Shown here: positions 13,283 to 25,984 of the stretch, one piece after another
How the letters are laid out: each line of letters starts with the position of its first letter
Numbering within the stretch: position 1 is the first letter of the stretch
Assembly: GCA_030264375.1 (NCBI GenBank)
Contig: JASCQW010000072.1
Span: 27,301,447-27,352,952, forward strand
Length of the DNA stretch: 51,506 nucleotides
Source: Carcharhinus longimanus
Lineage: Eukaryota
Direction: 5' to 3'
The notes under the pieces: generated by a model
The model's input: the letters and a program-made list of their open reading frames with translations, nothing else
The model's database searches: none
Told to the model about the DNA's origin: nothing
Translations under genes and position numbers: made by a program

Positions 13283-15710
13283 GTTAGTATGACTCTCTGA
13301 TAAATACTTTGCTTCGTCTCAACTTTGACTTTATCATAAGTTATTTCTGTCTCTCTTAGTAATAATGTATTTTCGTAATCATCAAAAATGATCTTGTCAC
13401 AGCATGGGCAATAGACTACTCTGCCCCAGGAACTCCTATCAATATAAAATATATCCAAAAATACTGAATAAATCCAGAGTACTTTTGATAATGGAACTTT
13501 TGAAGCTGTTAAATGTTTACACAAAAAAACCCATAATATTAGTGAGTTGAGTGCCTTTAATGAGATCATTAAACTAAAGTAAAATTAAATTCTCTAGCTT
13601 TATGAATGATTCAGTTTGTATCGCACGTTCACTTAATACACTAGCCAGCGAATACGCCACCACAGAAATTTAAAGAAAAAAATACATTCAATTCCTCAGA
13701 TGTTATTCTTCACTTCACTCAAAATCCTTTCCATTATCAGAAAAGAAAGACAGCAGCACTGTGTTTTCTACTGTAATCCCCTTTCCAAATACTTCTGTGT
13801 TACTGGCTTTTAAGAGAAAAACTGTAAACTGCTTTTTAGTTAAGAGAAGTTCCACTTCAGCACCCAGACAGGATTCCCTTAGAAATTTCCATCAGTCAAC
13901 TATCTGAATCCACAACATTGGCCTGGATAGTTTTTCATTCCAATGGCAAGCATGCTTTATTAATTTTTTATTGTAGTACAGTATACTTGCATTAACTCTA
14001 TTGCAAACCAGTAGTGTGCTTTTTCTTTCCTTTTATGAGGATATGCGCTTAGATTAGGAATACTCTAAGGCCCAACCACCTTAATGACTTAACTGCTATT
14101 CTGAGTTACATATAACATGCTTGGGAAGCTGCAGCCTTTAATTCTGTTTTTCACTATAAAGTTAATGGATTGGAAAACAGTTTGTCTCTTAACTAAGAAG
14201 CATTTAATAGAAAGCTAAATCTGCTGCAAAGAAAAAAATGTAATTGTCAATATCCCATATTGTGCATTAATATTAACATTATAACATTATAACTGCTAGA
14301 ACTGGGTCACCATCAAAAGATCAAAGTACCCATATTTAGTACAACGGTATTTCTGAATTTTATGCACAACAGTTCTATTTGCAATTACAGAAAAGAACGC
14401 ACCAAAGATACCAATAAGCAATTTTCTACATCATAGCTACAAAACACAAATAAATGGTTGGGTTATTTATGATTATTAATATTTCCAGATCATACTCTTT
14501 TAGACAATTGATTTCCAATGTGCAAGTACAGATGACAAAGTCTAATGCAGCTTTAATAATGCAAACATCTATCACGTAAATGTATTATATTTGGGTTTAA
14601 TTACCTACATCATTTGTTGTTATTTTACTTCTTTCTCAATCATACTTTCTAAAAGCATCTCATGTTTCAGCCCTTATCTTGTTGAATCAGAATAGCTGGA
14701 ATGCATACATAAAATATTATGGCTGGACTTTTAGGGTTAATGCAAAATAGATCAGGATGATCAAGCAACATAATATGGTCTAATTCTTGATTTTTTCATT
14801 CTCATATCTTTGGGACGATTTATTCAACAAATCTTCCAAAATACTGTCTAATATTGAAACAATATCAAAGAAATCTAATTTTTCTAAGTTGTGCATTTGC
14901 AAAATAATATGGTATTAGCTAAGCAAATGATAAGGATAGGGCTACATAATGTTATTTCTTTCCTTGACCACTATATTTGATTTGTATTTTGGGATCAATT
15001 CCTTTTTCTGGCATGTCTTTCTTGATGCTGAACTGTTTTGTAATACCCTGTAATCTATAGTACTGTAAACACATCTTTGAAGTTTCAGCTAACATCCTGG
15101 CAACAAAGCAATGCAATTACAAATGAGCTAATTAACTAAATTGTTGATGGAGCATGAACAGTTCATTCACCCTGTTAGTTGCACCATGACAACAAGGGAT
15201 TCTCAAATTGTGAAGTTACTCATCTATACAAACTGCCTAAAGCCTATACGAGATGAAGGGAACAAGATTGAACCATCCAGGAGGACTCTGTCACCCAAGC
15301 TGTTGTAATTTTGCATTGATTTTAATTATGCTGTCGAATTTCAGAACAGTGGGCAGTTTTTAAATTTGTACTTTCACACTTCTACATTTCAATCATTAAA
15401 GTTTGCTGGTAGGTTTAGTTTGCAGCTCAAGGATGAACAGCTTATGAAATTACAAATAAATCTCTCCACGTATGATATTCTGAATGAGTAAAACCTATTA
15501 GAAAAAGTACATACACGTGTACGGGAACATCATGAGAAAATGAGCAATTTTAAGATTTTATTTCTATGGATACAGAAACATTTTTGCAAATGTCAAAGGG
15601 TTAATTTCAGCCAAAAGCAAAGACAGCCTGTATTAAAAAAATACTCCTGGAGGTAAACAATGAACAGCAATTTGCCAGTCGTCTTACTGACTGTTTATGT
15701 GATAAACTTA

Positions 15711-15970
<260 letters not shown>

Positions 15971-24132: not shown

Positions 24133-24442
24133 GTTTTAAAGTTTATTTATTAGTGTCACAAGTAGGCTTACATTAACATGCAACAAAATTATTGTGAAAA
24201 TCCCCTAGTCACCGCACTCTGGCACGAATTCAGATACGCTGAGGAAGAATTTAACATGGCCAATGTACCTAACATGCATGTCTTTCGGAATGTGGGAGGA
24301 AACCACTGCATCCGGAGGAAGCCCACATAGACACGGGGAGAACATACAAACTCCACACAGACAATGACTCAAGTAGGGATTCAAACCCGGATCCCTAACA
24401 CTGTGAGGCAGCAGTGCCAACCACTGTGCCACCATGCCACCC
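24133..24442 (-). mobile_element. Full-length V-SINE with the alternative 3' tail
   Basis: Minus-strand head gggtggcatggtggcacagtggttggcactgctgcctcacag, V-domain, and tail ..cttgtgacactaataaataaactttaaaac. Confidence 0.88.
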
Positions 24443-24524
24443 TGATTGGATGGAATATTGAATGTTTCTGCCTGTACCTTGTGAAATTTCACCACTGCCA
24501 TCTGGCCATCTGGCACGAAGTGAG

Positions 24525-24603
24525 ACACAGTAAGAAGTCTCACAACACCAGGTTAAAATCCAACCAGTTTATTTGATAGTAAACCCACAAGCTTTTGGGG
24601 TTT
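24525..24603. mobile_element. Penelope-like family B arm, truncated by a 100-N gap
   Basis: Nearly identical to ~25699-25779 (agtaagaagtctca..ccaggttaaaatccaaccagtttatttgatagtaaacccacaagcttttggggttt). Confidence 0.75.
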
Positions 24604-25668
24604 NNNNNNNNNNNNNNNNNNNNNNNNNNNNNNNNNNNNNNNNNNNNNNNNNNNNNNNNNNNNNNNNNNNNNNNNNNNNNNNNNNNNNNNNNNNNNNNNN
24701 NNNACCACCCGCCCGCTCCCGCCCCACCCCCCCCCCCCCCCTAAAATTAAAACAGAAAATCCCCCCGAGGTGGAAACTTATAATTGGATGTTAAGACTTG
24801 ATAACTTGCTGTAGTTTCTTATCAAGTGGTTGTATCAATTACTGTGCAAACATTTTGCAGTGAATGCTATTTGTTTCTATGGTACCTGCTCCTTTTAAAC
24901 AGTGAAGGTCACCAGTTACTATGAGGTACATTTCACACTTCTTTTCTGCTTTGATCATTTGTTGTAGGCAACAAAAGGCCATGTCTTACCAATTGTGCAA
25001 TGTTTGAAAGCTCTGTTTGACTTTTCAGCTTTGACCTTGTGTCACGGAAACTTTCATATTAGCAGGAAGGCAATATTTCTGGGAATGTGACTTTTTATTG
25101 CAAGTGGCCAGTAGATTGACAGTGTAATGTTTGAAAAGGTACATTGAAAATCACCACATAGGTGAGAGAATAAACTCCAGACCCAGTTTAATGGTTTTAC
25201 ATTGGAGCCCGACAGCTCCTAGGCATTTGTTTTGCCACTTTATTGATTTAAAGAGTGACTACAACTGGTATAGATCATTAAACATATCAAAGAGTAAAGG
25301 GAGCTTTCAAAGCCAAATGCACAATTTCAAAGGTTCCTAACCATTTTCACAAACACCTCTCTAGGATTTTCCATTCCAACTAGCAGCATGCGCATTGCAG
25401 ACAGGAGGGGATCATTTGGAGAACAGCTCCCCAAAACTTCCTGCCCTACCCACAATGGTGCCCACCACTGGCGTGGCTGGAAAATCCCACTCTTTCACAG
25501 AAATGTGCCAGAAACTGGAACAACACCTGGGCACACAGAGAGCTCACGCTGATGTATCCAGGTGCACCAATGAACAACAAATGAGAATCATCATGAGCGA
25601 AGGTAGGAATTCCTACATCAGGAATTCCTTCATTTCAGCACCTCAAGATAATCTGATGTGTGTCATCA

Positions 25669-25984
25669 GATGTGGAGATGCCGGCGTTGGACTGGGGTAA
25701 ACATAGTAAGAAGTCTCATAATACCAGGTTAAAATCCAACCAGTTTATTTGATAGTAAACCCACAAGCTTTTGGGGTTTGCCCCTTCGTCAGGTGAGTGG
25801 AGAGTTCTGGTCTCAAACCAGAGACCAGAACCAGATTTGAGACCAGGACGCTCCACTCATCTGACGAACAGGCAAACCCTGAAAGCTTGTGGGTTTACTA
25901 TCAAATAAACTGTATGGATTTTAACCTGGTGTTGTGAGACTTCTTACTGTATTTACCCCAGTCCAATGCCGGCATCTCCACATC
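25669..25984. mobile_element. Penelope-like-derived long palindrome with a minimal hammerhead motif in each arm (family B)
   Basis: Arms 25669-25817 and 25836-25984 are near-perfect reverse complements. Plus-strand motif actcat-CTGACGA-acaggcaaaccct-GAAA-gctt-gtgggt at 25855-25894. Confidence 0.8.

What the first reader, a model, noticed from the sequence alone, without database searches (positions are those of the whole stretch)
25669..25984. 316-bp palindrome in FOXP2 intron 7 carrying a minimal hammerhead ribozyme motif on each strand
Seen: two ~149-bp arms are near-perfect reverse complements around an 18-nt spacer. The two arms give the consensus ACUCAC-CUGACGA-A-GGGG-CAAA-CCCC-GAAA-GC-UU-GUGGGU. 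That is helix I (ACUCAC/GUGGGU), the CUGANGA and GAAA core, helix II, and a palindromic AGCU in place of helix III. Established: Penelope-like elements carry minimal type-I hammerheads of this kind, which can cleave as dimers and often form inverted terminal repeats. Inference: this is an ORF-less, ribozyme-bearing hairpin element mobilised by a Penelope-like RT, possibly a shark retrozyme-like family. Its status as undescribed is not verified.
Basis: partly seen in the sequence, partly recalled or inferred. Interest (0 to 1): 0.72.

Follow-up and report, generated by a model that had tools for sequence, protein, structure and literature searches.

The report
Decayed back-to-back Penelope retroelement ends
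This mirror-image stretch in an intron of a FOXP gene is two back-to-back, decayed ends of a very common Penelope-type jumping gene, a footprint already described; both of its ribozymes are predicted to be broken, and the odd extra kilobase wedged in beside it is likely an assembly error.

Summary
The palindrome is real (149-nt arms, 135 of 149 matching, 18-nt turn), and the hammerhead consensus is right. It is not an ORF-less retrozyme. The arm is the pseudo-LTR end of a high-copy Penelope-like retrotransposon, likely Neptune clade: at least 1,034 copies of the motif exist, and copies run on into GIY-YIG and RT sequence. Head-to-head pairs of all sizes, with one 'tail' and a target duplication, are the family's normal footprint and are in print. 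Each arm here has a lesion in its ribozyme. One oddity: both arms carry the tail and no target duplication flanks them. The duplication (11 of 13) instead pairs the right end with a third, tail-less arm 1.1 kb to the left, around single-copy DNA. This layout recurs (9 of 17 loci with a third arm), but no donor copy was found in 3 of 3 cases, and 7 of 7 long inserts hold a 100-N run. An assembly mis-join is likeliest; real capture is not excluded. The scan noted such palindromes before on other DNA (155 notes, 16 or more genomes).

The parts
25669..25817 (-). Left (middle) arm: 5'-truncated PLE pseudo-LTR in element sense on the minus strand, with the roughly 36-nt 'tail' at 25669-25704
   Evidence: arm starts cluster at position 1-4 (81 copies) and 28-40 (48 copies)
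25818..25835 (.). Turn of the palindrome; holds an 11-nt piece (25821-25831) that is the reverse complement of 25804-25814, likely a templated filler at the join
   Evidence: sequence
25836..25984 (+). Right arm: 5'-truncated PLE pseudo-LTR in element sense on the plus strand, with tail
25759..25798 (-). Minimal type I hammerhead, core G12 changed to A at 25772 (CpG decay); same sense as the host gene; predicted inactive
25855..25894 (+). Minimal type I hammerhead, core letters intact but the two inner helix II pairs broken; predicted inactive
24514..24526 (+). Left copy of the likely target-site duplication
   Evidence: 11 of 13 match to 25984-25996; control 21 of 1,980 mismatched flank pairs reach 9 of 11
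25984..25996 (+). Right copy of the likely target-site duplication (its first five letters also fit the element's own tail)
24525..24603 (-). Third, tail-less pseudo-LTR arm, 96% identical to the left arm, running into a 100-N stretch; likely the true left end of the insertion
24704..25668 (.). 965 bp of single-copy, non-PLE DNA between the third and the left arm; no second copy found
31980..32204 (-). Open frame holding the host-gene exon upstream of the intron (FOXP2 exon 7 by recalled numbering)
15699..15782 (-). FOXP-CC match in the host-gene exon downstream of the intron
   Evidence: (38.5 bits, over the cut-off)

Best explanation
The palindrome is two truncated, head-to-head copies of the hammerhead-bearing end (pseudo-LTR) of a high-copy Penelope-like retrotransposon, likely of the Neptune clade, likely made when the element's enzyme cut both DNA strands and copied its RNA from each cut end, and both ribozymes are predicted to be dead. 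Shown: family identity, copy number, the size series, the two start points 36 nt apart, target duplications around ordinary copies, and the lesions. Inferred: priming from both ends (about 60%). The insertion's real boundaries are likely the 13-nt duplication at 24514-24526 and 25984-25996 (about 85%), with the tail-less arm at 24525-24603 as its left end. The 965 bp of single-copy DNA and the outer part of the left arm most likely come from another locus and were joined here by the assembler through the shared arm sequence (about 50%). In that case the true locus is an ordinary one-tailed palindrome of about 280 bp.
For: Family: 3,756 first-look candidates for the arm; 1,034 exact matches to a CpG-degenerate 31-nt hammerhead pattern and 432 with an intact core, 0 for the reversed control. 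Coding link: arm copies continue into a C-x4-C-x2-C linker and GIY-YIG domain (PF01541 E 5e-4); the ORF part of a 94% arm copy is 81-88% identical in DNA to 5 of 5 tested loci that reach the RT core (RVT_1 E 2e-6 and 4e-4). Layout: of 29 position-ordered insertions 14 are one-tail palindromes, 2 two-tail, 2 no-tail, 11 unpaired; 22 of 35 one-tail palindromes have a flanking direct repeat of 7 nt or more against 35 of 1,190 control pairs; 3 of 3 tested 2.5-3.5 kb examples with ORF sequence in both arms have 8-11 nt duplications. A purified lizard PLE cuts and extends both strands and starts at two sites a tail apart (PMC11167929, main text). Outer duplication: 0 of 45 two-tail pairs have an adjacent duplication, but 9 of the 17 with a third tail-less arm match at the outer ends at 9 of 11 or better. 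A 464-nt contig of a related organism covers 24415-24522 and goes on for 355 letters not on the stretch laid; joined to the right flank it would end at 26347, 31 nt into the next SINE, as a contig of an empty site should. Mis-join: 7 of 7 inserts over 800 nt hold a 100-N run, 5 of 7 within 40 nt of the third arm against 16 of 52 for tail-less arms generally; no donor in 3 of 3; one contig per related organism across the insert; third and left arm identical over arm positions 55-111 and different at 36, 51, 54.
Against: All Pfam hits to GIY-YIG and RVT_1 fall just under the curated cut-offs, and no intact full-length copy with two direct pLTRs was seen; no tree was built. The covariation alignment was preselected for 3 or more helix II pairs (30 of 34 representatives plus the two arms). 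PMC3846280 (Discussion) reads such palindromes as self-priming, not two-ended priming, and nothing here separates the two. Against the mis-join: all three arms share a rare variant (6 of 130 copies, these three included); a poly-C tract beside the N run could explain the gap by itself; no left-over partner or second flank copy for the left arm lies within 100 kb on either side; at L217 the outer arms are only 82% alike against a median 92% in ordinary palindromes; 28 of 45 two-tail pairs have no third arm within about 4.8 kb.
Confidence: 0.8

Rival explanations
1. One reading: a fixed-length, ORF-less, ribozyme-bearing hairpin element (retrozyme-like family) that is mobilised as a unit by a PLE RT.
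For: Most copies are short and lack ORF sequence (protein hits beside few of 44 loci); 432 copies keep an intact core; a preprint derives animal retrozymes from pLTRs (10.64898/2026.07.22.740005, abstract and passages).
Against: No fixed length or turn point; a continuous series into the ORF; head-to-head, not tandem; both ribozymes here damaged; the hairpin would hide the motif.
Confidence: 0.04
2. The three-arm structure is real and is host-DNA capture by reverse transcription: a read-through RNA (pLTR, tail, 1 kb of flank) was copied into the site between two direct pLTRs and one inverted pLTR. (Confidence concerns the 965-bp insert only.)
For: [quoted passage not shown]
Against: Copying predicts a donor; none in 3 of 3 searches (only 40 of 6,341 and 40 of 143 candidates scored in the last two) and one contig per related organism; N run in 7 of 7.
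Confidence: 0.22
3. The three-arm structure is real and the insert was moved, not copied: DNA bounded by pLTRs was excised and re-joined into a new PLE insertion through arm homology. (Confidence concerns the 965-bp insert only.)
For: Explains the outer duplication, the lack of donors and the mosaic left arm together; the PLE endonuclease cuts at its own pLTR junction in vitro (PMC11167929, main text).
Against: The mis-join predicts the same three facts and also the N runs; no mechanism of this kind turned up in the literature searches.
Confidence: 0.12
4. The mirror half is made by fold-back self-priming of one cDNA or antisense template rather than by priming from both cut ends. (Confidence concerns how the palindrome forms.)
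For: Proposed in PMC3846280 (Discussion); the turn here holds an 11-nt inverted filler; L169 holds an inverted copy of its own flank.
Against: Either arm can be the longer one and either can carry the tail; the two start points match two RT start sites and both strands are extended in vitro (PMC11167929).
Confidence: 0.3

Closest known systems
EN+ Penelope-like element insertions with inverted pLTR, one-sided 30-40 bp tail and TSD (PMC8557442 Fig. 2 legend; Adineta vaga Pen2a_Av, PMC3846280)
   Same: Head-to-head 5'-truncated copies, tail of about 36 nt at either end, 7-14 nt duplications, heavy 5' truncation, noted assembly problems.
   Different: This copy is at the short end (no ORF sequence), has two tails as assembled, and its duplication lies beyond a third arm.
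Neptune clade PLEs (CX2-5CxxC linker before a C-terminal GIY-YIG; PMC8557442, passages)
   Same: C-x4-C-x2-C linker, C-terminal GIY-YIG, DKG motif before the RT core.
   Different: Nematis shares the linker; no tree was built, and Repbase/Dfam names could not be checked.
[quoted passage not shown]
   Same: Unpaired nucleotide between 9 and 10.1, G10.1-C11.1, palindromic 15-16 region with a 2-nt insert, variable helix II, opposite-strand pairs 100-700 bp apart already noted.
   Different: Helix II is 4-5 bp rather than 7-8; both copies here are mutated; sharks are not named in the parts read.
Host DNA captured between pLTRs in Adineta vaga (NRPS gene, Pen3a; PMC3846280)
   Same: Two direct plus one inverted pLTR around foreign DNA, one TSD outside.
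   Different: Here no donor copy is found and an N run interrupts every long example.
Non-LTR retrozymes (PMC7229834; 10.64898/2026.07.22.740005)
   Same: Short, non-coding, type I hammerhead, pLTR-related.
   Different: Those are head-to-tail tandem repeats of fixed monomer length expressed as circles; this is inverted, variable and decayed.

Membership tests
EN+ Penelope-like element | RT and C-terminal GIY-YIG in one ORF joined to this terminus | tested here: met
   Arm copies run into EN and RT thumb; RT core in loci 81-88% identical; Pfam hits weak, under cut-off
EN+ Penelope-like element | Inverted 5'-truncated copy, one-sided 30-40 bp tail, TSD | tested here: met
   14 of 29 ordered insertions one-tail; 22 of 35 with TSD vs 35 of 1,190 control
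EN+ Penelope-like element | Full-length ORF between two direct pLTRs (partial tandem) | tested here: inconclusive
   No intact copy among 20 8-kb loci; longest N-free frame 563 aa; many N gaps
Neptune clade | CX2-5CxxC linker between RT and EN | tested here: met
   feature taken from PMC8557442
Neptune clade | Placement in an RT phylogeny | not tested
   No reference PLE sequences were at hand
PLE minimal hammerhead (family level) | CUGANGA/GAAA core, extra nucleotide, G-C closing pair, palindromic helix III stub | tested here: met
   432 intact matches; 60 G-C and 16 G-U of 83
PLE minimal hammerhead (family level) | Compensatory changes in helices | tested here: met
   4 of 4 helix II pairs change on both sides, 25 cells vs 10.4 shuffled; preselected rows; helix I weak
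PLE minimal hammerhead (this locus) | Intact core and helix II in the genomic copy | tested here: not met
   G12 lost on the minus copy; inner helix II pairs lost on the plus copy
PLE minimal hammerhead | Self-cleavage as dimer or with protein | not testable with these tools
   bench assay
Non-LTR retrozyme | Head-to-tail tandem monomers each with a hammerhead | tested here: not met
   Arms are inverted; the one direct pair is 1.1 kb apart and both carry the G12 change
Non-LTR retrozyme | Expression as circular RNA | not tested
   The one run search was for DNA; 0 of 20 holders on record as RNA
PLE transduction of host DNA | Donor copy of the cargo elsewhere | tested here: not met
   0 of 3; assembly is gapped, so not final

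The most novel reading that the evidence does not exclude
The three-arm inserts are real, and this Penelope family relocates kilobase pieces of single-copy host DNA into its own new insertion sites without leaving a donor copy: a cut-and-move by-product of a retroelement, recurring at several loci of one genome.
Probability: 0.12. Interest if true: 0.7.

Novelty: new member of a known kind. Interest (0 to 1): 0.24.

Why it matters
As it stands it matters little: one decayed copy among thousands, in a layout already in print. Two things are usable. The family's ends (two start points a tail apart, either arm longer) fit the two-strand cutting seen in vitro for a lizard PLE and offer natural material on how inverted pLTRs form. 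And two-tailed palindromes without a target duplication flag either assembly mis-joins, a caution for short-read assemblies rich in these repeats, or real relocation of host DNA, which one long-read check would settle.

Tried and rejected
Rfam scan: no hammerhead family; miRNA hits rejected as generic hairpins. TSD directly around the 316 bp: none (longest shared word 4 nt). Donor of the 965 bp: none in the assembly (3 candidates, two 38-41 nt hits) or within 100 kb. Partner arm or second flank copy for the left arm nearby: none. Inversion between two neighbouring insertions: rejected by reasoning, as it leaves different duplications at the outer ends. Full-length element: not found in 20 loci. 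ARAGORN found no tRNA. No look-alike notes for this place. Literature: searches for Penelope with shark and Neptune, with transduction and pLTR and with twin priming gave no relevant listing; Repbase and Dfam could not be searched, so 'undescribed family' stays unverified. Supplements were not read; those of PMC4209133 may list fish or shark hammerheads. FOXP2 versus other FOXP paralogues was not settled by a call (PDB search gave only FOXP3).

Full report
Observation. It folds as one hairpin far beyond chance. The consensus motif quoted is right, but each arm is damaged: the minus-strand copy has lost core G12, and the plus-strand copy has lost the inner two pairs of helix II. Rfam has no hammerhead hit. 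The site lies in an intron of a minus-strand FOXP gene; the name FOXP2 and the intron number are recalled, not tested. The species was not determined.

What the arm is. A genome search gave 3,756 candidates, 40 scored, the best 93-95% identical. A 31-nt hammerhead pattern allowing CpG decay has 1,034 exact matches, 432 with an intact core, and 0 for the reversed control. Beyond the arm the copies share sequence for different lengths, from about 150 to over 900 nt, and the longer ones encode a C-x4-C-x2-C linker and a GIY-YIG domain. L155 holds RT thumb and endonuclease sequence between a tailed and a tail-less arm, 91-95% identical to ours, with a 12-nt duplication. Loci that reach the RT core are 81-88% identical in DNA to the ORF part of a 94% arm copy. 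The Pfam scores are just under the curated cut-offs. So the arm is the pseudo-LTR end of an endonuclease-bearing Penelope-like element. The linker points to Neptune or Nematis (PMC8557442, passages); Neptune and Poseidon are the clades reported from vertebrates (10.64898/2026.07.22.740005, passages).

The ribozyme. Of 83 distinct core-intact motifs in the loci held, all have one unpaired nucleotide after A9 (A in 82), 76 close helix II with G-C or G-U, and 66 have three or more pairs. Subfamilies swap whole pairs in helix II: 4 of 4 pairs change on both sides in an alignment of 30 of 34 preselected representatives plus the two arms (the preselection inflates this). These are the features listed for PLE minimal hammerheads, which cleave weakly and only as dimers (PMC4209133, parts 1-2 of 4 read). 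In a lizard PLE the hammerhead needs protein and is not needed for insertion (PMC11167929, parts 1-2 of 4 read). Here the pair is on opposite strands, so the host pre-mRNA carries one ribozyme-sense copy of the pair, mutated and base-paired with the other arm. I predict no activity.

The palindrome is the family's normal footprint. Among 29 insertions taken in genome order, 14 are palindromes with one tail, 2 with two, 2 with none, and 11 have no partner within 1.1 kb. Arm ends cluster at two points about 36 nt apart. One-tail palindromes have flanking direct repeats of 7 nt or more in 22 of 35 cases, against 35 of 1,190 control pairs. The same build reaches 2.5-3.5 kb with ORF sequence in both arms. 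This is the published layout (PMC8557442, PMC8969392, passages; PMC3846280, passages and Discussion). It is not a retrozyme, which is a head-to-tail repeat (PMC7229834, passages). Mechanism, inferred: a dimeric enzyme cuts both strands, each end primes cDNA at one of two start sites, and the two truncated cDNAs join head to head. Fold-back self-priming is the published alternative and is not excluded.

The oddity. This copy has two tails and no adjacent duplication. A third, tail-less arm at 24525-24603 runs into 100 N; its left flank matches the right flank of the palindrome at 11 of 13, and all three arms share a variant seen in 6 of 130 copies. I collected 50 candidate two-tail loci; 45 had a central pair by my rule (8 of them with another arm inside, so possibly two insertions). 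None of 45 had an adjacent duplication. Seventeen had a third tail-less arm within about 4.8 kb, and 9 of these matched at the outer ends at 9 of 11 or better (6 at 10 or better), against 21 and 0 of 1,980 controls.

What lies between. The 965 bp are single-copy in the assembly and gave one long contig in each of the four related runs laid; organism E also joins them to the tail. Two other inserts had no donor either. All 7 inserts over 800 nt hold a 100-N run, 5 within 40 nt of the third arm (6 within 50), against 16 of 52 tail-less arms generally; 130 of 243 N runs in the fetched loci are exactly 100 long. The third and left arms are identical on the head side and differ on the tail side. 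An assembler joining a foreign short contig through a shared arm explains all of this, and a rare shared variant would favour such a join. Against it: no left-over partner within 100 kb, a poly-C tract that could cause the gap alone, and a published real case of the same layout (PMC3846280). I put mis-join at about 0.5, copying with a lost or unassembled donor at 0.22, relocation without copying at 0.12, and chance or other routes at the rest.

Earlier notes of this scan (unchecked AI notes) report such palindromes 155 times in at least 16 genomes, two-ended priming several times, one insert without a source copy and one likely mis-join; the last prompted my gap test. Verdict: a real but ordinary, decayed PLE footprint; new member of a known kind; interest 0.24.

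Noticed in passing
window 31282-31433: A second piece of the same PLE end, with two 57-nt arms facing tail-to-tail 8 nt apart, the reverse of the usual order.
   Followed up: no
window 12196-12428: Another inverted repeat, 101-nt arms, 84% complementary, 31 nt apart, from a different repeat family also seen at 7421 and 28693.
   Followed up: no
window 30586-30827: Two 99% identical SINE pieces on either side of a 100-N run, likely a false duplication of the assembly.
   Followed up: no
window 25652-25672: An 8-bp inverted repeat around 5 nt sits across the junction of the left arm and the single-copy DNA.
   Followed up: no
L169:4805-5243: Three-arm insertion whose 39-nt insert holds a reversed copy of its own left flank, partly repeated; arms 100% identical, so young.
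   Followed up: partly
L067:2121-5204, L072:3138-6665, L074:2822-5280: Large head-to-head insertions with RT or endonuclease sequence in both arms, one tail and 8-11 nt duplications.
   Followed up: partly
G000, 28 of 45 two-tail loci (L168-L228): Two-tailed palindromes with neither a duplication nor a third arm nearby; could be deletions between neighbouring insertions or further mis-joins.
   Followed up: no
window 40387-40662: Host-gene exon with a long glutamine run on the minus strand.
   Followed up: no
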